Shown one piece after another: positions 11,366 through 46,609 of a stretch of DNA of 53,068 nt (its first letter is position 1; each line of letters starts with the position of its first letter). Below the pieces are notes generated by a model. That model was not told the origin of the DNA and did not search any database. It saw only the letters and a program-made list of their open reading frames with translations. This DNA is from a virus (Duplodnaviria; Caudoviricetes). The position numbers and the translations under genes are program-made. The DNA is taken from IMG/VR virus record IMGVR_UViG_3300037762_000317, positions 1 through 53,068 of that record. One strand, 5' to 3'.

Positions 11366-11610
11366 CAGTGGCCGCCGTGTTCGCTTGGGCACACGTGCCG
11401 CCCGGTGGTGTGGTCGTGCATGCCGTGCGTGGTCGCGTCACACGTGGGCTGGCTGGTGGGGTCTTCGCCGACCGCGTCGACGGGCACCGTGTCAGCCGGA
11501 TGCTGTTCGACAGGTTGGTCGGCGGGTTGGGCGCATCCGGTGAGGAGGGTGAGGGTGGTTGCGGCGGCGACGACGAAACGCTTCACGATGCGTCCTGTTC
11601 TGTGAGTCAT
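11365..11610 (-). CDS. putative lipoprotein
   Basis: signal peptide ending in lipobox LTG-C; ATGA-coupled to the Tas-like ORF. Confidence 0.65.
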   Translation of the reverse strand: MTHRTGRIVKRFVVAAATTLTLLTGCAQPADQPVEQHPADTVPVDAVGEDPTSQPTCDATTHGMHDHTTGRHVCPSEHGGH

Positions 11611-13085
11611 GCGGCACCCCCAGCGCGGCGAGGATGGGACTCGGATGGTCTATGGCTGGGGGTGCCGCCTCCCGACGAATGGGCAGTGGGCGTCGCGGCG
11701 TCACTGGTCGGGAGTTCTTCGCCCCCACCAGCGGAAGCCCGCTGGGTGCCGAGCGCCACATGGCCGGTGGGGGCGTCTCCCGGCGCCCCTTGTATGGGTG
11801 CCGCTACTTCGCTGGCCGGGAGGGTTCTTCGTGCTTCGCGCCACAGGTCGAGCAGGATGCGTTTGGACACGAGGCGCATGGCGCGGGCGTGCTTGTGTCC
11901 GTCGCTCAGCGGCGACCCGACCGCGGCAGGGTCACCCTTCGGGCCGCAGCGCTTGCACTCGACTGGGTGGACGGCGTCGGCGTACTTCGCGCGCCCGTCG
12001 TCGTAGACGTCGCGGTAGGGCGACCGCCGCTTGGTCGACGGCGGGCCGATCTGCTTGATGCAGGACTCGGCGACGACGTAGACGCGGGACTTGGCTTCGG
12101 TCGACCAATTCGCCCGCTGGCCGCGTGCGCGGGTCGGCGCCACCCCGACGCAAGCTATGTGGTCGTCGGTCTCCTGGTGGTCGGGGTGGCGTCCGTCATC
12201 CCCATGGTTCCCCTGGGCATCGATCCGAACGTGGGGGATGACGTGTAACCCGCAGTAGGCCCATAGCTTCGCGGGGTTCAGGCGGGTGGCGGGGTCGCCG
12301 ATCGCGGCGATAAGCCGTGCGGCCTGTTTCTCGCCGACGCCGACGTTGTCCTTCACCCACTGCGCGAGATAATGGCGGCGCATCGCCCGTTTGAGCATGA
12401 GCGTGGCGCCGTGCTCCATCGCCTGGATCTGCCCGAGCATGTCCCGCATCGCGCCGACTTCCGGGAGCCCTTCGGGGAGGCCCTTGCCGTGGGTGACGCC
12501 GTCGACCTCCCACGTGGTGGTCAGTGAGCGGATGCGGTTTTCGTGGGCGATGCGGACCTGTTCGATGTCGCCGAGCAGGTCGGCGTGGACGAGCAGCAGC
12601 GCGTCCTCCACCCCCCTGGCGCTCCCGATCTGGGCGTCGTGCGCGTCTTGGCCTTCGGGGGATGGAGGACCGCCACCGACGGAACTTGAATGGTCGTCGC
12701 TCGGTCGATGGTCGGTGGCGGCCACGACACATGCTTGGTCGTCGCGGATGGAATGGTGACCGCCACCGACGTCCGCACGTTGGGCATCCAGCAAGGTCTG
12801 GTCGGTGGCGGCCACGCTCGTTGTTTGGGCATCGACAGCTCGCTGGTGACCGCCACCAACGATGCGCCATTGGGCATCGCGCGCAGTGTGGTCGGTGGCG
12901 GCCACGGGCGGGATTTGGGTGCCGCATGTGCAATGGTGGCCGCCATCGACGCAGGGGCTTTGGGCGTCGGTGCCAGGATGGTCGATGGCGGCCACGAAAG
13001 GAACATGGGTCTCGTCTGTTGCTTGGTGACCGCCACGACCGTCCACCGACTGGATATCGCGGTCATGATGGATCGTGGCGGTCAT
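11607..13085 (-). CDS. tasA: TasA-like Nop/IS110-Tnp-domain RNA-binding protein with no nuclease domain; folded core about 12611-11830, remainder is translated guide array
   Basis: coiled coil DIEQVRIAHENRIRSL, then GVGEKQAARLIAAIGDP...LWAYCGLHV...RGQRANWS...VAESCIK...SPYRDVYD...GHKHARAMRLVSKRILLDLW; no RuvC DEDD or HNH domain; embedded dual-spacer array. Confidence 0.8.
   Translation of the reverse strand: MTATIHHDRDIQSVDGRGGHQATDETHVPFVAAIDHPGTDAQSPCVDGGHHCTCGTQIPPVAATDHTARDAQWRIVGGGHQRAVDAQTTSVAATDQTLLDAQRADVGGGHHSIRDDQACVVAATDHRPSDDHSSSVGGGPPSPEGQDAHDAQIGSARGVEDALLLVHADLLGDIEQVRIAHENRIRSLTTTWEVDGVTHGKGLPEGLPEVGAMRDMLGQIQAMEHGATLMLKRAMRRHYLAQWVKDNVGVGEKQAARLIAAIGDPATRLNPAKLWAYCGLHVIPHVRIDAQGNHGDDGRHPDHQETDDHIACVGVAPTRARGQRANWSTEAKSRVYVVAESCIKQIGPPSTKRRSPYRDVYDDGRAKYADAVHPVECKRCGPKGDPAAVGSPLSDGHKHARAMRLVSKRILLDLWREARRTLPASEVAAPIQGAPGDAPTGHVALGTQRASAGGGEELPTSDAATPTAHSSGGGTPSHRPSESHPRRAGGAA
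11611..11822 (-). ncRNA. TIGR-like array block 3: 4 stem-loop units in the 3' end of the ORF
   Basis: four CCA-N9-CGNNNCCCA-N9-CG units, each closed by its own 8-14-bp inverted repeat (11611-11668, 11669-11714, 11720-11775, 11777-11822). Confidence 0.85.
12138..12243 (-). ncRNA. TIGR-like array block 2: 2 stem-loop units inserted in frame inside the Nop domain
   Basis: CGTCATCCCCCA-cgttcggat-CGATGCCCA-ggggaacca-TGGGGATGACG and CGCCACCCCGACCA-ccaggagac-CGACGACCA-catagcttg-CGTCGGGGTGGCG. Confidence 0.8.
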
Positions 13086-13086
13086 G
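12604..13086 (-). ncRNA. TIGR-like array block 1: 10 dual-spacer units (9 at an exact 45-bp period)
   Basis: 18-nt edge repeats ending CCA, 9-nt spacer A, 9-nt loop repeat CGATGCCCA-like, 9-nt spacer B; all spacers different. Confidence 0.88.
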
Positions 13087-13549
13087 AGCGCATCACATCC
13101 TCAACAAGGCCGTCGTCGAGATCGCCGACCGTCACCGCGCCCGCCTTCGCCATCTCACCGCGAAGCCGGTCGTAGCGGTCAGCGAACGTAGAGTTCCGAG
13201 CCGCCCGCTCGCGGTACTGGTCAGCGATGAATTCAACCTCCGCAGCGGTGCAGTCGCCGAGGCGCTTCCACTGCGGCACCCACACCTGCCAGACCTTCGG
13301 GTTCGCCACATGTGGACGTGCCCGCGCGTACTTCGACTCGCCCTGCGCTGGCGCCGGTGCCACTGAGGTCCGCTGGCGTATATCAGCGAGCCGATGGCGT
13401 GCGAGCCGATGGCGTGCCGCCTCACGGACCGCCCACACGATCAACTCGTCGCGTTGGTCGTCGTTGATATTCGGCAGGACCTTCTCGGAGATCTCATCGG
13501 GTCCGACCGCCCCATCGGCGATCGCGTCATCGATCAGCTCATTAAGCAT
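13082..13549 (-). CDS. hypothetical protein directly upstream of and coupled to tasA (candidate accessory factor)
   Basis: ...WKRLGDCTAAEVEFIADQY...YDRLRGEM...VTVGDL; stop overlaps the ATG of the Tas-like ORF. Confidence 0.7.
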   Translation of the reverse strand: MLNELIDDAIADGAVGPDEISEKVLPNINDDQRDELIVWAVREAARHRLARHRLADIRQRTSVAPAPAQGESKYARARPHVANPKVWQVWVPQWKRLGDCTAAEVEFIADQYRERAARNSTFADRYDRLRGEMAKAGAVTVGDLDDGLVEDVMRS

Positions 13550-13818
13550 TACGACAGCACCTCGTAGGCCGCTTCGAGCGTGTCGGGCGGCACGGACCGA
13601 AAGCCTGGGATGTCGTCGGCGAGCACGGCGGCCCAGCCGGGGAACACATGCTCTTCGCCTTCGGCGGTATGAATGACGAGGGTGCGGCGGGTGTCGCCGA
13701 TGGTGGGCGTGAAGTCATAGGCGGCCATGCCGAGGGCGACCAGTTCGCGGAGCGCTTCACGGGTGTCGTCCCAGGTGACTGCGTGGGCTAGCAGCGGCTT
13801 GTGGCGGACGCGCATCAC
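13549..13818 (-). CDS. conserved small phage protein
   Basis: RHKPLLAHAVTW...LVIHTAEG...GFRSVPPDTLEAAYE resembles the widespread KKPV..TLEG..GE.YP..F..TYE phage family. Confidence 0.65.
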   Translation of the reverse strand: MMRVRHKPLLAHAVTWDDTREALRELVALGMAAYDFTPTIGDTRRTLVIHTAEGEEHVFPGWAAVLADDIPGFRSVPPDTLEAAYEVLS

Positions 13819-14072
13819 TGAGCCACCGCTTCGGCGTCAGGGTCGGTGAGCGCTTCCATGACCGCGTCGTCGCGGACGCCCAACGCGACGGCGATCTCGT
13901 GGCCGACGTCCCACGTCATCGGACGCGACTGGTTGATGACCAGCGACAGGGTGCTGCGGGAGATGTTCGTCTCGTCCGCGAGCTGCGTGATCGTCATGCC
14001 GCGCTCGCGGAGGAACTGGCGGATCGGCCCTTCGAGCGGCCGGTAGCGGGTTCTGTGTCGGCGGTCGTTCAT
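13815..14072 (-). CDS. Cro-like XRE HTH regulator
   Basis: LRERGMTITQLADETNISRSTLSLVINQSR; divergent from the repressor; first gene of the early arm. Confidence 0.85.
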   Translation of the reverse strand: MNDRRHRTRYRPLEGPIRQFLRERGMTITQLADETNISRSTLSLVINQSRPMTWDVGHEIAVALGVRDDAVMEALTDPDAEAVAQ

Positions 14073-14078
14073 GCGGTC

Positions 14079-14107
14079 AACGTAGCGCCGATCGCAGCGC
14101 AACGCAA
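14079..14107 (-). promoter_or_regulatory. early lytic promoter (leaderless)
   Basis: TTGCGT-N17-TACGTT then 6 nt to the cro ATG. Confidence 0.65.
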
Positions 14108-14231: not shown

Positions 14232-14570
14232 ATGCGACCACACCTCGGAGATCTGATCCGCGCCATGCGCGAAGATCGGGGTCTCAGCATGCGCGAGCTG
14301 GCACGCCGTTCCAACGTCGACATCTCGACGTTGTCGCGGTTGGAGTCACACACCCACGCGACGATGACACGGGAGAACACCTCACGAGTCGCGCAGGCCC
14401 TCGGAACGACCGTCGAGGAGGTCGAACGTCGGCTCGGTCACAACAACGACCAACCGGCCCCACGTCGCTGGCCGAGCGTGGAAGAGGTCATCGAGCGGGA
14501 CCGGGAGCTCACTGCGGTTCAGAAGGCCGCTCTGGTCGCTCACTATCGGTCGTACGTCCACAGGCGATGA
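14232..14570 (+). CDS. immunity repressor (XRE HTH)
   Basis: LGDLIRAMREDRGLSMRELARRSNVDISTLSRLE; divergent from cro, upstream of the integrase. Confidence 0.85.
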   Translation: MRPHLGDLIRAMREDRGLSMRELARRSNVDISTLSRLESHTHATMTRENTSRVAQALGTTVEEVERRLGHNNDQPAPRRWPSVEEVIERDRELTAVQKAALVAHYRSYVHRR

Positions 14571-14828: not shown

Positions 14829-15074
14829 ATGAGCGAGCAGTGGCTAAACGCTTGTGTCGGGTTGGCCAAGCTCTACTGGAACGAGTACGGCTACGGCGCG
14901 CCAAGCGAGACCGCCGACATGCACGAGGGTGACCGCACTCGCGCAAACACGACGGCTGATGAGGTCGCCGCTCTGCGCTGGTTGGAGGAACAGCCTGAGT
15001 TTCAAGAGGCGTGGGCGCGCGCTCAGGGCTTAGGGTCTTGGGCTGCGCGGATGGCCGACAGGGAGGGGTTGTGA
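14829..15074 (+). CDS. hypothetical protein
   Basis: strong RBS TAAGGAGG; 81 aa. Confidence 0.65.
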   Translation: MSEQWLNACVGLAKLYWNEYGYGAPSETADMHEGDRTRANTTADEVAALRWLEEQPEFQEAWARAQGLGSWAARMADREGL

Positions 15075-15313
15075 TGGGTGGGGGGCGTCGGGCTGCTGCG
15101 GATCGGGCGTACCACCGCTACGTGGACGCGGGTCGTCGGGCGGGGGAGGTCCGCCGCCACGCCGGCCGGATCGCCGACACCCCCTCCAAGCACCTGGAGG
15201 CATTGGGCGAGGCGGCGCTGATCGACCTGGAGGAGACGCTGCGGGTGGTGTCGGACGAGTTGGACGTCCAGGCCGACATCCGCCGCCACGGACAGCGAAG
15301 GAACAGCCGATGA
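15074..15313 (+). CDS. hypothetical protein
   Basis: TGATG coupling; helical C-terminus. Confidence 0.55.
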   Translation: MGGGRRAAADRAYHRYVDAGRRAGEVRRHAGRIADTPSKHLEALGEAALIDLEETLRVVSDELDVQADIRRHGQRRNSR

Positions 15314-15492
15314 TCGTCTCCGCTGACCGCACCGTGGTCGTGATCGGCCCCGACGAGATGGTCGCGTTCAAGGACGAGTTGATCGCCGTCTATCACATTG
15401 TTGGGAACACGAATACCCTGGTCTACAGCGGCGTGCGGGGCTTCCAGGATCTGCCGCTGTTGGCTGCGCTGGCTGATGCGTTGGATGTGTGA
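15310..15492 (+). CDS. hypothetical protein
   Basis: ATGA coupling, RBS AAGGA. Confidence 0.55.
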   Translation: MIVSADRTVVVIGPDEMVAFKDELIAVYHIVGNTNTLVYSGVRGFQDLPLLAALADALDV

Positions 15493-15496
15493 CGTG

Positions 15497-15769
15497 GTGA
15501 GCGGTCATGCCCCAATGACGGCCGGCGAACTGCGACAGGTGCTTGCGAACTATCCCGACTCCACCCGCATCGTGCTGGCGAAGGACGCTGAGGGCAACGG
15601 ATATAGCCCACTGTATGAGGTCGTCGTGGCGATGTATGCCGCTGAGACGACGTGGTCGGGCGAGTACTTCCTGCGCGAGCGGGAGCGCCTTGCGCAGGAG
15701 GATCCGGACGACTGGGATCCTGCGCCGGATGATGCGGTTGAGGCCCTGTTTCTGTGGCCGGTCAACTGA
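15497..15769 (+). CDS. conserved actinophage protein
   Basis: MTAGELRQVLANYP...VLAKDAEGNGYSPL...LFLWPVN pattern. Confidence 0.7.
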   Translation: MSGHAPMTAGELRQVLANYPDSTRIVLAKDAEGNGYSPLYEVVVAMYAAETTWSGEYFLRERERLAQEDPDDWDPAPDDAVEALFLWPVN

Positions 15770-15770
15770 C

Positions 15771-16955
15771 GTGAGTGTGCATAAGTATGTCGACGCGGGG
15801 GGCCATGCGCGGTGGCGGGTCAACTACGAGCTGCCACCCCACTCGGAAACTGGCAAGCGGCGGAAGTCCACGAAACGCGGGTTCCCGACGAAGCGTGCCG
15901 CGAAGGTGTGGGAGGACGGGTTGCGTGGGCGCATCGCGCAGGGCGACATCCCGCCGGTGCGTGAGCGACGGCAGACGGTCGGCGGCTATCTGCGCGGCTG
16001 GTATGCGGGCGTCGGCGGGAAAGAGACGTGGCGTGCGCATTGCCGCGACATGTGCGAGTGGTACGTGCTCCCGCATCTCGGGGGCTTCCCGCTCGACCAG
16101 CTCGAGCCGGAGCATGTCGACGCGTGTTACCGGCTGCTCGAGCGCGGCGGGTGGCGGCGCAGGACAGCGAAAGGCAAGCTGCGGGGCGTGGGGCCGCTGG
16201 CGCCGAAGACGGTCCGCAACGTCCACATCGTCCTGCACCGCGCCCTCGCTGTAGCGGTCGAACGGAAGCGTCTGCGCCGCAATGTGGCGAGTCTGGCGCA
16301 CCCGCCGACGCAGAAGGCCGCCAAGTCGCGGAACGCCGAGCGGGTGTGGACCCCCGAGCAGCTGCAGGCGTGGCTGGCGCACATCGCCGGCGACCGGCTA
16401 TACGGGGTGTGGTATCTCGCGATGACGACGGGGATGCGCCGCGGCGAGCTCGCCGGCCTGCACTGGGTCGACGTCGACCTTGAGTCTGGGACTGTCAGGG
16501 TGCGGTGGGAGCTGACCGTCGTGGACAACCGTCCGACGTGGGTGGACGGCGCCAAGACCACGGCGGGGGAGCGGACCGTCGACCTCGACGCGCGGACTGT
16601 GGAGGTTCTAAGGACCCATCACGCCCGTTTGTCGCAAGAAAAGCTGGCGTGCGGCCCCGCGTACCACGATGAGAACCTGGTGGTGTGTTGGGAAGACGGG
16701 ACGCTGATGCATCCGGACCGGCTGTTACGCGCCCTGTATCGGCACGCGAAGGCGCTCGATCTGCCGAGGATCAACGTGCATGGCCTACGGCATTCCTACG
16801 CGACGATCGCGCTCGACAGCGGGGAGGATCACAAGGTGGTGTCGGAGCGGTTGGGGCACGCGTCGGCGGCGACGACGATGGACGTCTACCGGCATGTGTC
16901 CGACGCGCAGCATCGAGCCGCCGCCGAACGCATAGCGAAAAGGATCACCGGATGA
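15771..16955 (+). CDS. int: tyrosine integrase
   Basis: arm-binding N-terminus (TGKRRKSTKRGFPTKRAA); catalytic TGMRRGE, KT, HGLRHS, LGH, DVYRH. Confidence 0.95.
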   Translation: MSVHKYVDAGGHARWRVNYELPPHSETGKRRKSTKRGFPTKRAAKVWEDGLRGRIAQGDIPPVRERRQTVGGYLRGWYAGVGGKETWRAHCRDMCEWYVLPHLGGFPLDQLEPEHVDACYRLLERGGWRRRTAKGKLRGVGPLAPKTVRNVHIVLHRALAVAVERKRLRRNVASLAHPPTQKAAKSRNAERVWTPEQLQAWLAHIAGDRLYGVWYLAMTTGMRRGELAGLHWVDVDLESGTVRVRWELTVVDNRPTWVDGAKTTAGERTVDLDARTVEVLRTHHARLSQEKLACGPAYHDENLVVCWEDGTLMHPDRLLRALYRHAKALDLPRINVHGLRHSYATIALDSGEDHKVVSERLGHASAATTMDVYRHVSDAQHRAAAERIAKRITG

Positions 16956-17155
16956 ACGAGGCGTTTTCGCTGTGCGACGTCTACTACTTCTGCGGCTGCT
17001 GCGGCGGCGACATCGACGTCGACGGCGACATCGAGGACTGGTGTCGCTTATGCGAGGAGCATGTGCTGTCGGAAGGCGCGTTGTGGAACCGGACGTTCTA
17101 TGCGCAATGGAAGCGCCCGTGTCCGTATCAACCGATCGAGATCGACGTTGACTGA
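16952..17155 (+). CDS. small Cys-rich hypothetical protein (cassette ORF)
   Basis: ATG overlaps the integrase TGA; FCGCCG...WCRLC. Confidence 0.65.
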   Translation: MNEAFSLCDVYYFCGCCGGDIDVDGDIEDWCRLCEEHVLSEGALWNRTFYAQWKRPCPYQPIEIDVD

Positions 17156-17167
17156 GGGACACACCGG

Positions 17168-17368
17168 ATGAAGACCGCCAAGCCGAGGGTTATCTGGGAC
17201 TGCGCGTCGTGTGGCATGCCGATCCCCGAGCACACGAAGTACCACCCGTATCTGTACTGCGTGCTCTACCGGCATTACAAGCGCGACCCAGCTGACGTAT
17301 TGCGTGAGCATGGATTTGAGCGGCGTCGGGCGGCGGCGGAGCGGACCGCCAAAAGGATAACCGGATGA
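17168..17368 (+). CDS. hypothetical protein ending in an integrase-like C-terminus (RAAAERTAKRITG)
   Basis: 66-aa ORF; last 13 aa nearly identical to the Int C-terminus. Confidence 0.65.
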   Translation: MKTAKPRVIWDCASCGMPIPEHTKYHPYLYCVLYRHYKRDPADVLREHGFERRRAAAERTAKRITG

Positions 17369-17595
17369 ACGAACATATGACGGATGAATGCCAGATCGTC
17401 TGGATGAACCGCGATGGCCAGTACGAGCGGGTGCTGGGCGACCTGGACGTCGAAGACTGGCGGCTACTGCTGCGTCTCATGCGCGAGCACTATCCCCAAC
17501 AGTTCGCCGGCGCGACCCTGCAGACTCGGGCCGATGACAAGTCACCCTGGTACGACGTCGCAATGGGGGGGAACGAAGGACCGAAGTCCACATGA
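17365..17595 (+). CDS. hypothetical protein (cassette ORF)
   Basis: start supplied by the repeat (AAAAGGA-N6-ATG). Confidence 0.65.
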   Translation: MNEHMTDECQIVWMNRDGQYERVLGDLDVEDWRLLLRLMREHYPQQFAGATLQTRADDKSPWYDVAMGGNEGPKST

Positions 17596-17638
17596 GGCGT
17601 CGGGCGGCGGTGGAGCGGACCGCCAAAAGGACCACCGG

Positions 17639-17944
17639 ATGAACGACACCGCCATCTGTCATGTGTGCGGCATGACGACCGTCATATACCGAGGTGTCGA
17701 CGGGCCAGTCCGTTGCGAGAAGCACTTCGACATCCCCGAAGACCGAAGCACGTTCAGGCCAGGTGTGCCGGTGGTCATCCGCGACGCCAGTGGTGATCAG
17801 CATCGTCGCATTGCGGCCAGCGGCGTAGTGCCCGCGTGCTGGTCTTACATCCGGAAGGTCTGGATCGAGAGCGTCGCCGATGCGGACCCGATTCCATGGC
17901 CAGCTGAGGACGTTCGTCTAGACGCTGAGCGGAGCGCTCGATGA
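17639..17944 (+). CDS. hypothetical protein (cassette ORF)
   Basis: MNDTAICHVCG..., start supplied by the repeat. Confidence 0.65.
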   Translation: MNDTAICHVCGMTTVIYRGVDGPVRCEKHFDIPEDRSTFRPGVPVVIRDASGDQHRRIAASGVVPACWSYIRKVWIESVADADPIPWPAEDVRLDAERSAR

Positions 17945-18210
17945 GCGCTGACTCGCGGGATGGGAATCAAACGGGTGAGGCGTCGGGCGGCGGCGGAGCG
18001 GACCTCCGTGAACTTCTGTCGCGCTACACCGATGCCCCACCGGAACACCGCGAGATCCGCGCCGGGCTCTTCGCCTCGCAGGTGATCAAGGACATTGGCG
18101 TGCCCTTCATTAAGGATCCGGTGCTCCCCGGCAACGCCATCGCGGTACTCAACGGCCACGGCGAAACCGTTTTCTCCGTCCTCCTCGGGGAACTCGATGA
18201 TCAGCGCTAG
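17941..18210 (+). CDS. hypothetical protein (cassette ORF)
   Basis: ATGA coupling; contains a partial repeat near its 5' end. Confidence 0.55.
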   Translation: MSADSRDGNQTGEASGGGGADLRELLSRYTDAPPEHREIRAGLFASQVIKDIGVPFIKDPVLPGNAIAVLNGHGETVFSVLLGELDDQR

Positions 18211-18293
18211 CACGGGCTCACCTACGCAACCGCGCGATTAACTCCAGCGTATGTCTACAGGCCGGCGGAGCGGACCGCCAAAAGGAACACCAC

Positions 18294-18638
18294 ATGAACG
18301 ACCACATGAACGACGCCAACGACGCCGCGCAGCGGATCCTCGACGGCCTCAACAACCACCGCACCGTCACCGCCGACATGGATCTCGACTACCCGGACGC
18401 CGGATGGGGCGAGCACGTGTCAGCCGACGACGTGCGGCTCGTCGTCGCGGCGCTGCAGACCTATCGGGAGGCGGAGCGGACCGCCAGAAGGACCCCGCCG
18501 GTCCCATGGTGGGTGTGCCCCAACGCCCTGTGTGAACACGGCGCCGTTCTGCATGACGTCTACGACATGGAGGACAGGACGCCGCGCTGCTGCGTCGATG
18601 ATTGTCCGTGCGGGTCCACCCTCACCCCGGAACCATGA
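18294..18638 (+). CDS. hypothetical protein, probable fusion across a degenerate repeat
   Basis: start supplied by the repeat; internal AERTARRT followed by a Cys-rich half. Confidence 0.6.
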   Translation: MNDHMNDANDAAQRILDGLNNHRTVTADMDLDYPDAGWGEHVSADDVRLVVAALQTYREAERTARRTPPVPWWVCPNALCEHGAVLHDVYDMEDRTPRCCVDDCPCGSTLTPEP

Positions 18639-18847
18639 ACACGACCGGCTTGCGTGATGATGAGGCGCTGATGTACGCGCGTCGCGGTAGGACCGCTCAT
18701 GTCGCGACCATCGGCGAGATCGGCGTTGGGATTCTGTGTAACGAACTCGGCGAGATTGTGTTCGGCACCGCTACTCAGGCCGAGCGCGAACACGCCGTAC
18801 GGATGCCTCTATGCAAGCGCTGCGCGCATATCGTCGCCACCAGGTGA
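18635..18847 (+). CDS. hypothetical protein (cassette ORF)
   Basis: MNTTGLRDDEALMY...PLCKRC; ATGA coupling. Confidence 0.6.
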   Translation: MNTTGLRDDEALMYARRGRTAHVATIGEIGVGILCNELGEIVFGTATQAEREHAVRMPLCKRCAHIVATR

Positions 18848-18925
18848 ACGACGTCGACGAAGCCGCCACCCGGGACACATGAGGCGTCGGGCGGCGGCGG
18901 AACGGACCGCCAAAAGGACCACCAC

Positions 18926-19114
18926 ATGAACGACCCCAGCCAGACACCTCGACCGCGATTCCTCGACAGCGACCTCGCCGCCGTCTGCCAGCGCATAGTC
19001 GACGCTGCCCAACGCATGACCTACGAACACGGCTACATCCCAGACGACTTAGAGGACGCGCTAGACGCCGCAGCCGAACTCGGCATCACACCTACCCGAG
19101 GACGACGGCGATGA
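18926..19114 (+). CDS. hypothetical protein (cassette ORF)
   Basis: start supplied by the repeat. Confidence 0.6.
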   Translation: MNDPSQTPRPRFLDSDLAAVCQRIVDAAQRMTYEHGYIPDDLEDALDAAAELGITPTRGRRR

Positions 19115-19186
19115 GTGACCCCGAGGCGCAGGACCGATTGACCGAACGCGGCCTCGCGCCGAGCGGATCGCGAAAAGGATCACCGG

Positions 19187-19393
19187 ATGAACAGAGGTCA
19201 CTGGTACTACGTCAAGTGGCAAGTCGAACTCAACGGCAGCGATATGACGCTGTATGGCTACATCCGCGCTGCGTCGACAACGGACGCGTGTCAGAAGTTC
19301 AAGGGTGAGCTGGAGCCGCGACTTCGACACATGCATCCATCCTTTAGTGAGGTGAAGGCATGGCGCCATCCTCGCTGGTTGCCCCGGTGGTGA
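19187..19393 (+). CDS. hypothetical protein (cassette ORF)
   Basis: start supplied by the last repeat copy. Confidence 0.6.
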   Translation: MNRGHWYYVKWQVELNGSDMTLYGYIRAASTTDACQKFKGELEPRLRHMHPSFSEVKAWRHPRWLPRW

Positions 19394-19488
19394 CTAGCAC
19401 AATGGTGGACGGTCACCTGCCCGCGAGCCTGAAAGAGGCTCAGTGCCGCCTAGGCAGGCAGGGGCCGTCCACCCGTTTGGCTCGCGGT

Positions 19489-19787
19489 TGGGAGTCAGAT
19501 GGGAGTCACGGCGCCCTACCAGCCCCGACCTACATATCTCCAACATATGTTGGCAGGCCGCTGACCTGCGGTTTTACCGGGTGTCGGCGCCGGGATTTGA
19601 ACCCGGAAGTCCCGAGGGACACATGGCCCTCAACCATCCGCCCCCCGTACGGTGGGGTTGCGTGGGGTTGCGTGGACACGCACAAAACCGCGCTGTTCCG
19701 GGGTTGTGGGGGGTTGCGCGCCGCTGCAGTGCCGTGGAGTCCGGTGGGCTCGCACGCCGTTGGGAGTCAAACGGGAGTCACGGGAGT
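19489..19787. other. attP: attP: core 19581-19637 matches the 3' half of a tRNA-Leu(GAG) on the minus strand; arm-type repeats YGGGAGTCA on both sides
   Basis: reverse complement ATGG-TTGAGGG-CCAT anticodon arm, long variable arm, CCGGGTTCAAATCCCGG T-arm; no D-arm or 5' half; arm repeats at 19489, 19500, 19761, 19772 and partial at 19781. Confidence 0.88.
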
Positions 19788-19801
19788 ACCGAGGAGCAGA
19801 A

Positions 19802-20155
19802 GTGAAGCGACAGTCGATCGAGCCAACCTATGACCACCAAGAGACCGGTGACCGCTATCACGTGACGTCGACCATCGACGGCCGGTCGGTGGCGTGGCGC
19901 CACCCGATCACGGACCCGTTCGTGCGACACACAGTGTGGATCGGGTGGCGCGACCTGCTGCGCGGCCTGCTCAAGCGGCGGCTTGACGTGACGGTGCTCA
20001 TCGGCGGCGACCGCGACGTCGTCGAGGACGTCATGGAGCTGAACGGCGACTACCTCGGGCCGAACTGCACCCGCCGCGACGAGTTCCACGTCAGCTTGAA
20101 CGCTTCGTTGGAGACGTTCAGCGCAGCCATCGCGGAAGAAGTAGATGAGTCGTGA
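19802..20155 (+). CDS. hypothetical protein
   Basis: GTG with RBS GAGGAG; 117 aa. Confidence 0.65.
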   Translation: MKRQSIEPTYDHQETGDRYHVTSTIDGRSVAWRHPITDPFVRHTVWIGWRDLLRGLLKRRLDVTVLIGGDRDVVEDVMELNGDYLGPNCTRRDEFHVSLNASLETFSAAIAEEVDES

Positions 20156-20280
20156 GTGTTGTGCGTGCCGTCGTCGACTGGCCCGCTGACGCGGAATGGG
20201 ACGGCGACGGACAGCCGCTGCCGGTGTGACGCGTGTCGGGCAGCGAACGCCGCCCATCAGTCTGTCGTACGCTGTCCGAC

Positions 20281-20562
20281 ATGAGTGAACAAGACGAGCC
20301 CGCCATCGAGTTCGATGTAGCCAAGCCCAAGTCGGAGGTCGTGTCCTTCCGAGTCCCCAGTGACATGCTGGACCGGTTCGAGGCCGAGGCCGAACGGCGC
20401 GGCATGAACATCAGCGAATACGTCCGCTGGGCCGCGATGAAGCACCTCGGCGAGGCGCTGGTCACGATGACTGTCACCACCGCATCGCCGATCACTGATC
20501 TCAACACGGAAGACATGATCGTCCGCGCGGTGCGCCGGGCGATGCACGGCATCCAGCCATGA
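20281..20562 (+). CDS. ribbon-helix-helix DNA-binding protein
   Basis: SEVVSFRVPSDMLDRFEAEAERRGMNISEYVRWAA. Confidence 0.8.
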   Translation: MSEQDEPAIEFDVAKPKSEVVSFRVPSDMLDRFEAEAERRGMNISEYVRWAAMKHLGEALVTMTVTTASPITDLNTEDMIVRAVRRAMHGIQP

Positions 20563-20629
20563 ACCCCGGACTAGAAGGCTGATTGGACGAGGTTCCAGCC
20601 TTGCTCCGCGACCGCCTGCAGATACGGGT

Positions 20630-20971
20630 TCAACGACTGGCGGATCTCCCACGCGCGCGCTCGTCAGTGAGGCGGTCGACGACCCGCCATCGGCACATAG
20701 CCGGGGTATGCCACTTGCCAACGGCGTGAACCGACGGGGACGTGATAGCGGTCCCCGCGTCGTCGTCGATGTCAATGTGCCATACAGGCTTGCCGGCGAG
20801 ATGGTCGCAACCGTGAGCGAGGTCGAGCATGACGGGCAGCGACGTGCGGTGCCCGTCCTTCGGGTCGATGAACGTCAGCCAGCCGATGTCGTGAGAGCCC
20901 GGCGAGCGGTCGGCAGGCGGTGTCAGCAGCGCGTCCATCGGCTGCGGGAACGGCACCTCCACATCGGTCAT
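20630..20971 (-). CDS. hypothetical protein (weakly DUF6527-like)
   Basis: ...VWHIDID...TAITSPSVHAVGKWH; family call from memory of the motif only. Confidence 0.5.
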   Translation of the reverse strand: MTDVEVPFPQPMDALLTPPADRSPGSHDIGWLTFIDPKDGHRTSLPVMLDLAHGCDHLAGKPVWHIDIDDDAGTAITSPSVHAVGKWHTPAMCRWRVVDRLTDERARGRSASR

Positions 20972-20995
20972 GGCCGGGTAGCGTACCCGCGTGTC

Positions 20996-21211
20996 ATGGC
21001 AGATCACGGCACCGCAGCGAGGTACATCCACGGCCGCTGCCGGTGTGACGCGTGTCGGGCGGCGAACGCCGCGCACAGTAGCAGGGGGCGGTTCCGCCGG
21101 TACATCCGCCAACCATTGCCCGACATGGTTGTGCATGGGTCGAATTCGACGTATGTGAACTGGGGGTGCCGCTGCCCGGAGTGCGGCGACGCCCACCGCC
21201 AAGCCCGCTAG
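20996..21211 (+). CDS. protein with two HG-x-Y-xx-CRCxxC repeats (paralog of 8654-9019)
   Basis: HGTAARYIHGRCRCDAC / HGSNSTYVNWGCRCPEC. Confidence 0.7.
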   Translation: MADHGTAARYIHGRCRCDACRAANAAHSSRGRFRRYIRQPLPDMVVHGSNSTYVNWGCRCPECGDAHRQAR

Positions 21212-43886: not shown

Positions 43887-44711
43887 TCAGAACGAGATAT
43901 CACCGATGCGGCGATTCAACACCGCGTCGACGTCGGGGATGCCGGTGCCGCGTCCGGTGCCGGCGTAGGAGTGACGAGCGGTGCCGTATTGATTCGAGAT
44001 GATCATCTGCCGCGACGCGCCGCCCGCCCGCTTTACTTGCACGTGATCGGCGATGGCGATGATTCCGGCGTCGTACAGGACACGGTCGGGGTAGTCGTGG
44101 CCGTGCTCGTAGCTGATCTGCAGCATCCCGGGGCCGACGGTCGGGTTGACGCCGTAGGGGGTGATGATTTCGCCGGACCGCAATGGCGTCCACGTCGACG
44201 TGTCGACCGCGGCGCCGTCGAGCGTGGCGGACAAGATCTGGCGGACGTGGGGGCGGTCGAGCACCAACGGGTCGGTCGCGACCGTGCGGTAGTGGGATTG
44301 GAGGCGGTAGCTCGGGACGAACGATTGGGTGCAGTAGTTGTCGACGAGATCGTGCCACCACCAGCGGCCGTCGGCCAGGGCCGCGTCGGGGAACTTGGTC
44401 TCGTCGGCGAGACCCGAGTTGCGCAGCGTGTTGAGATCGACGTAGAACCCGCCGACGATCGGGTGGTAGGTGGTCACCGTCCCATGCGTCGCGGACACCC
44501 AGGCGGCAGTGAGGACGTCGACCTGGGCGGTGTGGGTGGTGGTGAGCACGAACGTGCGGGGATTCGTGCTCGACCCCGCCGCGGCGGTGGACGCGACGAG
44601 TACTATGCCGTCCGCGCGGGAGACCATGACGGTCACGCTGCCGGGGTCGGCCGGTGAGTCAGCGTCGAACCACTGCGCGCTGATGGTCGCCGGTGTGCCT
44701 TTGAGGATCAT
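43887..44711 (-). CDS. head-to-tail adaptor
   Basis: VDNYCTQSFVP...ISYEHG...TGIPDVDAVLNR. Confidence 0.7.
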   Translation of the reverse strand: MILKGTPATISAQWFDADSPADPGSVTVMVSRADGIVLVASTAAAGSSTNPRTFVLTTTHTAQVDVLTAAWVSATHGTVTTYHPIVGGFYVDLNTLRNSGLADETKFPDAALADGRWWWHDLVDNYCTQSFVPSYRLQSHYRTVATDPLVLDRPHVRQILSATLDGAAVDTSTWTPLRSGEIITPYGVNPTVGPGMLQISYEHGHDYPDRVLYDAGIIAIADHVQVKRAGGASRQMIISNQYGTARHSYAGTGRGTGIPDVDAVLNRRIGDISF

Positions 44712-46609
44712 CGCGGCGCTGGCCGACAGGCAAGGTAGTCCGCGGCGGCGGGTTCGGACAGTTCCCCGTCGGGATGCCACCACGTCGGCACGGTATGCAC
44801 GACCTCCCATGTGTAGTCGAGGTCGGCGAGGAGCTGCTCGAGGTCGCCGCGGGTGTAGTAGCCGTAGACGTCGTGGCATTCGATGAGCAGCACCGGCCGG
44901 TGTTCGGCGAGCAGGCCGGACATGCCGCGCAGCGCGTGGAGGTCGGCGCCTTCGACGTCGAGCTTGACCAGATCGATCCGGTCGACTGCCAACACGCTGT
45001 CCAGGGATCGTGCTGGGACTACTGTCTGCCCGGGTGCGTCTGGTGGGACGGTACGGGTCGAGCCGCCTTCCTTCTTACGGTTCGGGTCGTCGAGTGCGAG
45101 TGTCGTGTCTTCGTCCCACGCCGCGACTTCGTGGACTGTCACGTTGGTGATGTCGTTGATCGCGAGGTTCCGGCGCAGCGTCGCAGCGGTGTCAGGGTTG
45201 GCCTCAACGGCGTGAACATGGCTGGCCTTGCCGGCGAGGCGGAGGGTCCAGTGGCCGACGTGCGCGCCGACGTCGAGCAGCACGCCGCCGTCGGGCAGTA
45301 GTTCGTCGATGATCGGCGTGAGTATCGATTCGTGGCTGGAGAAGCCAAGCTGGTCGTTGTAGCCGGGTCCGCGGTCGAGCCACAGCAACCCGTCGGCCTC
45401 CCTCACCGAAGGCTTCCGTTCGGGCGGCGGGTCGGTCCGTCGCATCTCCAACGCGACCTCGAGCCGCTCGAGCGCGGGCTTCCAGAACTCGACGAGCACT
45501 CGGTCGGCGTCGTAGTCCTGCGCGAACGCCCACGCCCGCGACCGCATCCCCTCATCCCGCGCCGACTCGTAGGCCTGTTCATAGGCGTCGACGATCCCGG
45601 AGATCAACGGCCGCCGCGCCCACGCGCTTTGGCTGTCGTGCCAGAGGACTTCGCCGGGGACCTTCCACCCGGCGCCGCACAGCTCCGGCATCGCCGTCGT
45701 GTCCGTCACCACCACTGGCGTGCCGCACGCCTGCGCCTCCACGATCGGGATGCCGAACCCCTCACCCCACGACGTGTTCGTCAACACGTCAGCGGAACGG
45801 TAGACATCCGCGACCACCGTCGGGGGCAGCCCGACCTTGTAGGCGTACTGGTCGGTGAAGTGGTACGACCCGTCGGGGAAGTCCGACAGCAGATGGCGGA
45901 TGTCGACCCCATACGGCGACGTCACATCCGTGTGCAACACGAGCACGGCGTCGGAGTGGCGTCGGCGGAGCTCGCCGAACGCGACGATCTGCTCGTAGAA
46001 CGCCTTCCGGGACCCGTCCTTGCCGACGTTCGCCGCGACCATCGCGACCACGAACGCGTCCGTCGGGAGGCCGGCGCGTTCGCGGGCCTCCGCCTTGTCG
46101 CCGGGCCGGAAGATGTTCGTGTCGATCCCGTGCGGGACGTACAGCGGGTCCATCCCCGCGTCCCGCAACAGCTTCTCGCCAAACCGCGACATCGCGATCG
46201 GCGCCGCCCCGGTCCGTTCGAACCAGCCCGCCACCGGCGGCGGGACCTCCTCGTGGTCGACTGGCACCCACGCCGCGACGTTCATCTCGCGGAGCAGCGG
46301 CTGCTCGAACGTCCACACGTCGCCGAGCGTGATGATCACGCCTTTGTCGGCGACGTCGCGGAACGAATGGCCCGGCCCGCCGCCGAAATGGTCCATCGCG
46401 TGCGGGATGATGATGTCGCTGCCATATGACTTGGCGTAGGCGGGGTAGCAGGTGATCCCCTGCCACGACATCTTGAACCCCTGGACCCCGTAGTACGCGG
46501 AGATCGCGACGTCGTGACCCAACGCCTTGATTCGGGGAGTGAACGTGGCGGTCTGCTGGCCGTAACCCGAGCCAACCGCAGGATGCACCGAGTGCCACAG
46601 CACCTTCAT
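44708..46609 (-). CDS. GT-B (family 4-like) glycosyltransferase fused to an FkbM-family methyltransferase
   Basis: SGYG, VPHGID, EGFGIPIVEAQACGTPVV; then LLDVGAHVG, VEAN, LVKLDVEGAD, LLIECH. Confidence 0.92.
   Translation of the reverse strand: MKVLWHSVHPAVGSGYGQQTATFTPRIKALGHDVAISAYYGVQGFKMSWQGITCYPAYAKSYGSDIIIPHAMDHFGGGPGHSFRDVADKGVIITLGDVWTFEQPLLREMNVAAWVPVDHEEVPPPVAGWFERTGAAPIAMSRFGEKLLRDAGMDPLYVPHGIDTNIFRPGDKAEARERAGLPTDAFVVAMVAANVGKDGSRKAFYEQIVAFGELRRRHSDAVLVLHTDVTSPYGVDIRHLLSDFPDGSYHFTDQYAYKVGLPPTVVADVYRSADVLTNTSWGEGFGIPIVEAQACGTPVVVTDTTAMPELCGAGWKVPGEVLWHDSQSAWARRPLISGIVDAYEQAYESARDEGMRSRAWAFAQDYDADRVLVEFWKPALERLEVALEMRRTDPPPERKPSVREADGLLWLDRGPGYNDQLGFSSHESILTPIIDELLPDGGVLLDVGAHVGHWTLRLAGKASHVHAVEANPDTAATLRRNLAINDITNVTVHEVAAWDEDTTLALDDPNRKKEGGSTRTVPPDAPGQTVVPARSLDSVLAVDRIDLVKLDVEGADLHALRGMSGLLAEHRPVLLIECHDVYGYYTRGDLEQLLADLDYTWEVVHTVPTWWHPDGELSEPAAADYLACRPAPR

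What the first reader, a model, noticed from the sequence alone, without database searches (positions are those of the whole stretch)
16913..19393. Cassette-like chain of small ORFs punctuated by copies of the integrase's own 3' end, between int and attP
Seen: int ends ...RAAAERIAKRITG* (GCCGCCGAACGCATAGCGAAAAGGATCACCGGATGA). Seven further copies recur over 2.3 kb. Each full copy supplies AAAAGGA plus ATGAAC, so six unrelated ORFs start MN(E/D/R) directly from a repeat. Most copies contain a GGCGG...CCGCC hairpin just before the RBS. attP lies about 2.6 kb from int. Established: attP usually abuts int, and integrons use a tyrosine recombinase with repeat-delimited cassettes. Inference: this is a gene-accretion platform where the int 3' end acts as a portable recombination site plus translation start, driven by Int or by phage homologous recombination. 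Recombination between copies would swap cassettes while leaving the Int C-terminus nearly unchanged.
Basis: partly seen in the sequence, partly recalled or inferred. Interest (0 to 1): 0.78.

Follow-up and report, generated by a model that had tools for sequence, protein, structure and literature searches.

The report
Integrase-tail repeats between phage gene cassettes
In an uncultured temperate phage of high-GC bacteria, copies of the last ~50 bases of the integrase gene separate nine tiny genes of unknown function and sit where related phages carry other genes or another gene order, so they look like homology patches for gene shuffling, not an integron-like site.

Summary
The window is a complete 53-kb uncultured actinophage-like genome. 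Eight + strand copies of a 30-60-nt sequence lie only between int and the putative attP. Six carry AAAAGGA-N7-ATGAAC and start an ORF with MN. There are two subfamilies: I-type (the int tail and c8) and T-type (c2-c7). All 13 close Int homologues read keep the tail ...RITG, so the tail is native to Int and the copies derive from int 3' ends. I and T differ mainly at third codon positions; T copies differ from each other at all positions. T therefore came from another int allele and now drifts as non-coding DNA. The nine ORFs are unrelated ORFans. Where relatives could be compared, homology breaks at or near the repeat. Phage G001 shares only int, one T copy and attP. A 1505-nt contig has o3-T-o2 where the window has o2-T-o3-T-o4. 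A third contig holds the o6 core without T flanks. The repeat does not resemble the attP core, Int is phage-type, and unrelated repeats flank other insertions in the same island. Best reading: a stop-SD-start linker that serves as a short homology patch for unequal homologous recombination, as T4 PeSLs do. Int-catalysed capture is unsupported. New variant of a known kind; interest moderate.

The parts
14232..14570 (+). HTH (XRE/Cro-C1 type) repressor-like gene that opens the + strand lysogeny island; a Cro-like HTH gene lies divergently at 13815-14102 (-)
   Evidence: Pfam HTH_31 E 8.7e-12 and HTH_3 2e-9; divergent ORF HTH_26 9e-8
15777..16955 (+). Tyrosine integrase (start GTG 15771 or 15777); its last 13 codons are repeat copy c1
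   Evidence: Pfam Phage_integrase 5e-19 and Arm-DNA-bind_4 1.7e-8; 13 homologues of 61-81% identity
16913..16959 (+). c1, I-type copy: the int tail HRAAAERIAKRITG*. Its TGA overlaps the ATG of o1 (ATGA).
16952..17155 (+). o1, 67 aa, Cys-rich ORFan (MNE...)
17162..17172 (+). Remnant of a repeat 3' end (CACCGGATGAA) at the o2 start
   Evidence: one of 6 matches, 0.24 expected
17168..17368 (+). o2, 66 aa ORFan; its last 16 residues (ERRRAAAERTAKRITG) are copy c2 read in frame
17320..17372 (+). c2, T-type copy; ATGA overlap into o3
17365..17595 (+). o3, 76 aa ORFan (MNE...)
17592..17646 (+). c3, T-type copy. It reads as a 16-codon mini-ORF (17592-17642, MRRRAAVERTAKRTTG*) with ATGA overlaps to o3 on one side and o4 on the other.
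17639..17944 (+). o4, 101 aa ORFan (MND...)
17941..18210 (+). o5, 89 aa ORFan; contains decayed copy c4 in another frame
17976..18007 (+). c4, T-type 5' half only (no RBS, no start)
   Evidence: (family D4)
18263..18303 (+). c5, T-type 3' two-thirds, intergenic, no start codon in the tail frame; followed by a 12-nt tandem duplication of its end (18285-18314)
18294..18638 (+). o6, 114 aa. It looks like a fusion of two units (o6a, o6b) joined in frame through copy c6.
18467..18494 (+). c6, T-type core, in frame inside o6 (..REAERTARRT..); RBS and start lost
   Evidence: (family D3)
18635..18847 (+). o7, 70 aa ORFan (MNT...), ATGA overlap with o6
18879..18934 (+). c7, T-type copy. It reads as a mini-ORF (18879-18929), preceded by a 12-codon ORF (18844-18882) that overlaps the o7 stop (GTGA).
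18926..19114 (+). o8, 62 aa ORFan (MND...)
   Evidence: weak phrog_16431 E 0.01
19157..19192 (+). c8, I-type copy, 33 of 36 identical to c1; no start codon in the tail frame
   Evidence: (91.7%)
19187..19393 (+). o9, 68 aa ORFan (MNR...)
19489..19780 (+). Putative attP: two direct pairs of GGGAGTCA sites (19489-19508, 19761-19780) around a tRNA-3'-end-like core (about 19575-19650)
   Evidence: 2 exact, 0.06 expected; conserved in G001. attB not found.

Best explanation
The repeat is a portable gene-boundary linker that began as the last ~15 codons of an integrase gene plus the first two codons of the gene behind it. In about 55 nt it carries a stop for the upstream ORF (RTGA at its 5' edge, or the TGA at its 3' edge for ORFs that enter in the tail frame), a good Shine-Dalgarno sequence (AAAGGA, 7 nt before the start), and ATGAAC. 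Any ORF placed behind it is therefore expressed within the repressor-int operon of the prophage. Because the same 30-60 nt recur at each boundary and in related phages, they act as short homology patches. Unequal homologous recombination between copies, within a genome or between co-infecting or resident relatives, then adds, deletes and reorders small moron-like ORFs between int and attP. This recombination may be helped by the phage's own exonuclease-based system. Shown here: the origin of the repeat from int, its anatomy, and the coincidence of homology breakpoints with the repeat. Inferred: that recombination at the repeat produced these differences, and that it is homology-driven and not Int-driven. 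The tail peptide or mini-ORF itself is probably a relic and not a product under selection.
For: (1) Origin. All 13 close Int homologues end ...AAE(R/Q)(I/A)A(K/R)RITG, and more distant ones keep AAE..A.AI.G (20 sequences read). c1 and c2 differ at 9 sites, 8 of them third codon positions (p 0.001). Over 10 T-T pairs the summed differences by codon position are 14/21/8. T therefore diverged as part of a functional int allele and now evolves without peptide constraint. (2) Restriction. All copies lie on the + strand in 16.9-19.2 kb. The repeat occurs only in the phages that carry this int: G001 has 2 copies, and 0 of 5 structural-gene relatives have any. Of those five, 0 have a close homologue of this int; 2 gave only weak ~60-aa matches. 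(3) Breakpoints. Between int and attP, the window and G001 (int 76% aa) share only int, the T copy (51 of 54 nt) and attP; all ORFs differ. Protein P0123 (1505-nt contig) is the alternative-frame reading of an o3 3' end plus a T copy (residues 1-38), followed by an o2 homologue (89%) with a T tail. The o3 homologue P0125 lies on a contig of the same length. That gives o3-T-o2 there against o2-T-o3-T-o4 here. P0130 (57 aa) lies on a 5138-nt contig, the same length as the contig of Int homologue P0002. It matches only the o6a core (44 of 49) and has other ends in place of the c5-derived MND start and the c6 tail. (4) Generality. Other repeats flank insertions in the same island. A 72-78-nt copy of the attP right arm occurs 3-4 times in G001 around a methylase block and other genes. 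A 40-nt repeat (20214-20253 and 21033-21072, 97.5%) brackets an RHH gene in the window. (5) Means and opportunity. The phage encodes a PD-(D/E)XK exonuclease. A G001-like phage co-occurs with the window phage in run X1, shown by joints 16955>17593 and 17646>19480 at depth 17-21.
Against: Only one relative is available as DNA. The other two are inferred from protein calls and matching contig lengths. No recombinant, deletion variant or circle was seen; the runs are held as contigs, which drop rare variants. The patches are short (30-59 nt) and 75-97% alike. No single-strand annealing protein was identified (the neighbouring 289-aa ORF has no PHROG or Pfam hit). Strong conservation of the T copy between the two phages could reflect a translational or regulatory role alone, and short blast hits are biased towards high identity. 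The frame and mini-ORF pattern is also what a GC-rich relic would show by chance.
Confidence: 0.55

Rival explanations
1. Expression element first. The repeat is kept because it is a translation-initiation or coupling module, comparable to the start-associated sequences of Cluster K mycobacteriophages. Ribosomes that end on the upstream ORF or mini-ORF restart at the overlapping ATG. Recombination at the repeat is incidental.
For: AAAGGA sits 7 nt before ATG in 6 copies. ATGA or GTGA overlaps chain int>o1, o2>o3, o3>mini>o4, o4>o5, o6>o7 and o7>mini>mini>o8. In G001, int overlaps a 38-codon ORF that runs in the tail frame into the next ATGA. The T copy is among the best-conserved stretches between the two phages.
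Against: The repeat is confined to one 2.3-kb interval and is not used by other genes. Differences within T are not codon-like. c5 and c8 have no start in the tail frame. No stable or covarying RNA structure was found and Rfam gave nothing. 4-nt overlaps are common throughout this genome. This reading does not explain why homology with relatives ends at the repeat.
Confidence: 0.2
2. Passive scars. The copies are leftovers of a few illegitimate or unequal crossovers between phages or tandem prophages with related int genes. They have no present role in expression beyond the RBS and none in recombination.
For: c4, c5 and c6 are truncated or decayed. T derives from a foreign int allele. c1 and c8 (33 of 36 identical) bracket the whole o1-o8 block like the flanks of a single insertion.
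Against: Four T copies (c2, c3, c7, G001 c2) stay 92-97% alike across two genomes whose int genes are 79% alike. The same T unit flanks different ORFs in three genomes, and the order changes at it.
Confidence: 0.15
3. Integron-like platform. Int, or another site-specific recombinase, recognises the repeat as a recombination site and inserts or excises cassettes.
For: Cassette-like layout next to a tyrosine recombinase gene. A 5-bp inverted repeat with a 6-nt spacer is present in most T copies.
Against: Int is phage-type with an arm-binding domain. Integron-integrase models score 48.8 and 35.1 bits against cut-offs of 265 and 435. The repeat is not like the attP core. The inverted repeat is absent from I-type copies, including the int tail itself. 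The other insertions in the island are flanked by unrelated repeats.
Confidence: 0.04
4. Assembly artefact. The array is a chimera of strains joined at the repeats by a short-read assembler.
For: The window is a metagenome contig. A related phage is present in the same run. Logan contigs break at c2 (17328).
Against: An independent Logan contig covers 17328-19749 (c2 through c8 and attP) with 0 differences. Two soil runs from other studies hold near-identical pieces of o4, o5 and o7. The exact o4-o9 proteins occur in both JGI and Logan assemblies. No two copies share an exact run of 31 nt. The stretch 16861-17328 is not shown bridged by an identical contig in the rows printed.
Confidence: 0.04

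Closest known systems
PeSL regulatory cassettes of T4-type phages (Arbiol et al. 2010, PMC2839356; abstract read)
   Same: Short conserved regulatory units recur between small non-essential ORFan genes in a variable region. Insertions, deletions and replacements between close relatives have their ends in the units, and the proposed mechanism is homologous recombination between units.
   Different: PeSLs are an early promoter plus a terminator stem-loop in a lytic myovirus, and mini-circles were shown physically. Here the unit is a stop-RBS-start linker derived from an integrase coding end in the lysogeny operon of a temperate phage. No promoter-like site was found and the one terminator-like site (18711-18729) lies outside the repeat copies. 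No circles were observed.
Start-associated sequences (SAS/ESAS) of Cluster K mycobacteriophages (Pope et al. 2011, PMC3203893; passages read)
   Same: An asymmetric repeat in one orientation lies a few bases before start codons, contains the Shine-Dalgarno core, is mostly followed by ATG, and precedes genes of different families. Some copies overlap the upstream stop. About half of SAS have an upstream inverted repeat that does not behave as an RNA hairpin.
   Different: SAS are 13 bp with another consensus, number 11-19 per genome, and are spread over the whole non-structural half. They are not derived from a coding end and were not linked to rearrangement breakpoints. Here 8 copies of up to 59 nt lie within 2.3 kb.
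Integron attC / attI cassette arrays
   Same: A tyrosine recombinase gene is followed by a one-directional array of short, mostly promoterless ORFs delimited by a recurring element.
   Different: There is no IntI-type integrase, no attC-like folded site, and no similarity of the repeat to the recombinase's own core site. The element lies at the 5' end of each ORF and supplies its start.
Conserved boundary or linker sequences proposed for module exchange in lambdoid phages
   Same: Short conserved sequences at gene boundaries are taken as preferred crossover points that create mosaic genomes.
   Different: Those sequences are single junctions shared between genomes. They are not a tandemly recurring unit inside one genome, and none is derived from int.

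Membership tests
Integron | IntI-type integron integrase | tested here: not met
   NCBIfam TIGR02249 scores 48.8 bits (cut-off 265) and NF011946 35.1 bits (cut-off 435), over the catalytic C-terminus only. Pfam gives Phage_integrase plus Arm-DNA-bind_4.
Integron | attC-type sites: imperfect inverted repeats that fold into a recombinogenic hairpin, related to the site the integrase cuts | tested here: not met
   The copies have at most a 5-bp inverted repeat, absent from c1, c4 and c8. Fold z-scores are -1.1 to +1.7. There is no similarity to the attP core.
Integron | Integrase-dependent excision and insertion of cassettes | not testable with these tools
   This needs an experiment. Contig-level read data showed no circles.
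PeSL-type mobile regulatory cassettes | Unit made of a sigma-70-like promoter and a terminator stem-loop | tested here: not met
   The simple scan of 13.5-21.5 kb found 0 promoter-like sites and 1 terminator-like site (18711-18729), which lies outside the repeat copies. The scan does not cover actinobacterial promoter types well.
PeSL-type mobile regulatory cassettes | Differences between close relatives begin and end in the units | tested here: met
   G001; P0123/P0125; P0130. That is three comparisons, two of them at protein level only.
PeSL-type mobile regulatory cassettes | Circular molecules formed by exchange between neighbouring units | not testable with these tools
   Only contigs were available for the runs.
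SAS/ESAS of Cluster K mycobacteriophages | 13-bp consensus GGGATAGGAGCCC 3-7 bp before starts | tested here: not met
   The repeat consensus from alignment A3 is different. Only the general layout (SD-containing, 7 nt before ATG) is shared. The consensus was taken from the paper.
SAS/ESAS of Cluster K mycobacteriophages | Copies dispersed before many genes of the non-structural half | tested here: not met
   All copies lie within 16.9-19.2 kb.
TIGR array (considered because the phage encodes a Tas protein) | Units of stem or edge repeat, spacer A, loop repeat, spacer B, next to or inside tas | tested here: not met
   The stem motif of the phage's own array occurs at <=2 mismatches in the array region only at 12711-12995, at 45-nt steps. 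Four unrelated <=2-mismatch hits lie elsewhere, and none lies in the int-tail repeats.

The most novel reading that the evidence does not exclude
The int-tail linkers are a dedicated cassette-exchange device: a homologous-recombination counterpart of an integron built into the lysogeny operon of a prophage. Each linker would be both the expression signal and the designated crossover site. Exchange between neighbouring linkers would release one-linker circles that can re-enter any related prophage at its int tail without damaging Int, so that a population of related prophages shares a pool of small, possibly defence or counter-defence, ORFs.
Probability: 0.12. Interest if true: 0.8.

Novelty: new variant of a known kind. 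Interest (0 to 1): 0.5.

Why it matters
Where and how temperate phages pick up small accessory genes is usually inferred from mosaic joints that leave no trace. Here the joints are marked by a recognisable unit whose origin (an integrase coding end) and history can be read from codon-position patterns: one foreign allele that was then copied. The array and its relatives therefore give a small, testable model for short-homology gene shuffling at the int-attP end of prophages, which is where lysogenic-conversion and defence genes tend to accumulate. The result also shows that a cassette layout beside a tyrosine recombinase does not by itself indicate an integron. The case rests on very few genomes, so it is a lead and not a general rule.

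Tried and rejected
- RNA structure: folds of 9 copies are no better than shuffles. Rfam found 0 matches at E<=1 in 14.0-21.5 kb.
- Expression: no RNA holder was listed among the public runs.
- More relatives by DNA: the exact core found only G001 in viral contigs and 4 unrelated single hits in genome contigs. A degenerate core in metagenome contigs gave 63 single hits. The 5' half of the repeat in viral contigs gave 3 chance hits. The back-translated tail gave only G001.
- Relatives by Int: alignments A1 and A4 found only G001 in viral contigs. A1 found none in genome contigs.
Host and attB therefore remain unknown (0 hits).
- Relatives by a structural-region protein: 10 IMG/VR records were examined. 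0 of 10 have a close homologue of this int (2 gave weak ~60-aa matches), and 0 of the 5 tested for the repeat have it.
- A protein search for T copies read in the downstream frame found nothing scorable. o2 has no homologue outside its 90% cluster.
- Cassette function: no Pfam, PHROG (one weak hit, E 0.01) or PADLOC family. The Atlas gave only unnamed look-alikes for o4. No DNA match in cultured phages.
- Paralogy of the ORFs: none.
- Link to the phage's TIGR-Tas system: half-spacers give exact 9-10-mer hits at about the chance rate (7 among 16). The single match to the repeat's RBS comes from an atypical first segment. The array stem motif is absent from the repeats. Rejected.
- An arm-site-like string before c4 has 4 mismatches to the arm pair and was not reported at <=3. 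Left as a curiosity.
Supplementary files of the papers were not consulted.

Full report
**What the window is.** The window is a whole IMG/VR virus record of 53,068 bp, rated complete, with about 66% G+C. It has no close cultured relative. Megablast and blastn of the region found nothing among 50,697 phage records. Its integrase and terminase are only about 32% identical to those of actinobacteriophages. Most genes lie on the - strand. A + strand island at 14.2-21.5 kb opens with an XRE-type repressor-like gene facing a Cro-like gene. It continues through the tyrosine integrase (15777-16955; Phage_integrase plus arm-binding domain), nine small ORFs and a putative attP. The finding therefore lies in the lysogeny operon, at what would be one end of the prophage.

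**The observation.** It holds. Eight copies of a 30-60-nt sequence lie on the + strand between 16913 and 19192, and none lies elsewhere in the genome. The core 19-mer gives 6 hits at <=3 mismatches against 0 in 100 shuffles. The RBS-start part gives 6 hits against 0. Its last 11 nt also appear at the o2 start. Six ORFs begin MN(E/D/R) at a copy's ATGAAC. The nine ORFs have coding-type GC3 and are the same gene calls that public pipelines made. They are unrelated to each other and hit no Pfam or PADLOC family, with one weak PHROG hit (E 0.01) among them. The attP call rests on two exact pairs of GGGAGTCA sites around a tRNA-3'-end-like stretch and on conservation in a relative. No attB could be found (later scans unanswered).

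**Where the repeat comes from.** The protein search gave 13 Int homologues of 61-81% identity. I read these and 7 more distant ones. All 13 end ...AAE(R/Q)(I/A)A(K/R)RITG, and the distant ones keep AAE..A.AI.G. The tail is thus a native, conserved part of Int, and the other copies are derived from int 3' ends. The copies fall into two types.
- I-type is the resident tail c1, the G001 int tail and c8 (ERIAKRITG).
- T-type is c2-c7 and the second G001 copy (ERTAKRTTG).
- I and T differ mainly at third codon positions (c1 vs c2: 8 of 9 differences, p 0.001). These pairs are not independent.
- T copies differ from one another at all positions (14/21/8 summed over 10 pairs).

The simplest reading is that T was once the end of a different, functional int allele. 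It was carried in together with the gene behind it and has since been copied as non-coding DNA. This also means that the 16-codon mini-ORFs at c3 and c7 and the tail on o2 show no sign of being selected as peptides.

**Anatomy.** A full T unit reads RTGA, about 30 nt, AAAAGGA, 7 nt, ATGAAC. An upstream ORF that enters in one frame stops at the 5' TGA (o3 at c3). In the second frame it gains the 16-residue tail and stops at the ATGA (o2 at c2; the 38-codon ORF behind int in G001). In the third frame it would fuse to the next gene. The unit thus works as a stop-RBS-start linker, and chains of 4-nt overlaps run through much of the array. Such overlaps are common all over this genome, and open frames are expected in GC-rich DNA. 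I therefore do not count the chain as evidence for obligatory coupling.

**Relatives.** One related genome is available as DNA: G001 (56,382 bp; Int 76% identical).
- G001 has the int tail and one T copy, and its attP lies 0.55 kb from int.
- Between int and attP the two phages share only int, the T copy (51 of 54 nt) and attP. All ORFs differ.
- A G001-like phage is present in the same run as the window phage. It shows as joints 16955>17593 and 17646>19480 at depth 17-21, and its 224-aa protein lies on a Logan contig of 2398 nt.

Two further relatives can be read only through their proteins.
- P0123 (103 aa, 1505-nt contig) consists of two parts. The first is the other-frame translation of an o3 3' end plus a T copy. 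The second is an o2 homologue with a T tail. The o3 homologue P0125 is on a contig of the same length. That phage therefore has o3-T-o2 where the window has o2-T-o3-T-o4.
- P0130 (57 aa) lies on a 5138-nt contig, the length also recorded for Int homologue P0002. It matches only the core of o6a, with other sequence in place of the c5-derived start and the c6 tail.

In all three comparisons homology ends at, or within about ten bases of, a copy.

The repeat goes with this int type. Ten IMG/VR records related through a protein encoded in the structural-gene region were examined. 0 of 10 have a close homologue of this int (2 gave weak ~60-aa matches), and 0 of the 5 tested for the repeat have it.

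**Which mechanism.** Nothing points to Int acting on the repeat.
- The repeat is no more like the attP core than shuffled versions are.
- Int is far below the integron-integrase thresholds.
- The short inverted repeat is absent from I-type copies.
- The same island shows the same signature, an insert bracketed by a duplicated boundary, with unrelated sequences. A 72-78-nt copy of the attP right arm with its RBS and start occurs 3-4 times in G001 around extra genes. A 40-nt repeat brackets an RHH gene in the window.
- c1 and c8 (33 of 36 identical) bracket the whole o1-o8 block in the same way.

This is what unequal homologous exchange, or re-entry of a one-repeat circle, would leave. It is how PeSL cassettes are thought to shuffle ORFans in T4-type phages (abstract). 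The phage encodes a PD-(D/E)XK exonuclease; no annealing protein was identified. I put this reading at 0.55. A mainly translational role (SAS-like; passages) gets 0.2, passive scars 0.15, Int-driven capture 0.04 and assembly artefact 0.04. The first three shade into each other.

**Limits.** Only one relative was seen as DNA. The gene-order case rests on protein calls and matching contig lengths. The public runs are held as contigs, which cannot show rare rearrangements. No RNA data were available.

**Verdict.** This is a real and tidy feature. It is best described as a new variant of the short conserved boundary units that mediate modular shuffling in phages. Two things are unusual: the unit is derived from an integrase coding end, and it doubles as the stop-RBS-start linker of a moron array. 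Interest is moderate (0.5). It would be higher if population data showed active exchange or circles.

Noticed in passing
window 11607-13087 (- strand): The phage carries a TIGR-Tas system. The 492-aa ORF hits NCBIfam NF052498 'TIGR-Tas system RNA-guided endonuclease' (E 3e-60, 203.8 bits, cut-off 100, residues 166-419) and phrog_4285. Its first ~140 codons overlap a 90-nt-period array (12668-13087). In the array, complementary 15-17-nt stems alternate every 45 nt, around variable 9-10-nt segments and a conserved GATGCCCAA-like centre. This fits the stem-loop TIGR arrays described inside the 5' end of tas genes (preprint 10.64898/2026.09.09.750476, sections read). G001 has no DNA match here. 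Half-spacers gave only chance-level matches in the window.
   Followed up: partly
L012 7970-8065 and 9519-9600; L081 15515-15600 and 15830-15860 (- strand); window 19700-19785: A second boundary repeat is the right arm of the putative attP: a GGGAGTCA pair followed by an RBS and ATGAGTGA. It recurs 3-4 times in G001 in front of different genes (a 76-aa ORF plus a DNA methylase, a Cys-rich 224-aa protein, a small ORF, and the p10 homologue). The window has one copy. Either arm-type Int sites were duplicated by insertions, or the motif is a regulatory site and not an arm site.
   Followed up: partly
window 20214-20253 and 21033-21072: A 40-nt direct repeat (97.5%) lies inside copies of a CRCxxC-motif coding sequence and brackets a ribbon-helix-helix (CopG-like) gene (20233-20562). 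It looks like an insertion that duplicated its target. A contig in run X1 shows a 'goes back 787' joint here.
   Followed up: partly
window 18285-18314: A 12-nt tandem duplication of the repeat's end (ACCACATGAACG twice) gives o6 the start MNDHMND. It may be a footprint of a staggered join at the start codon.
   Followed up: no
window 17960-17978: Just before copy c4 lies TGGGAATCAAACGGGTGA, which resembles the arm-site pair TGGGAGTCAAACGGGAGTCA (4 mismatches, so below the threshold used). It may be a remnant of an attP arm inside the array.
   Followed up: no
window 44708-46609 (- strand): A 633-aa protein is 82% identical in G001 and has many relatives in IMG/VR: 419 of 532 candidate stretches were confirmed. 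It was useful as a marker for this phage group. Its function was not tested here.
   Followed up: no
window 15000-21000 in runs X1-X3: Near-identical short contigs of o4, o5 and o7 occur in two soil metagenomes from other studies. A G001-like relative co-occurs with the window phage in the sediment run.
   Followed up: partly
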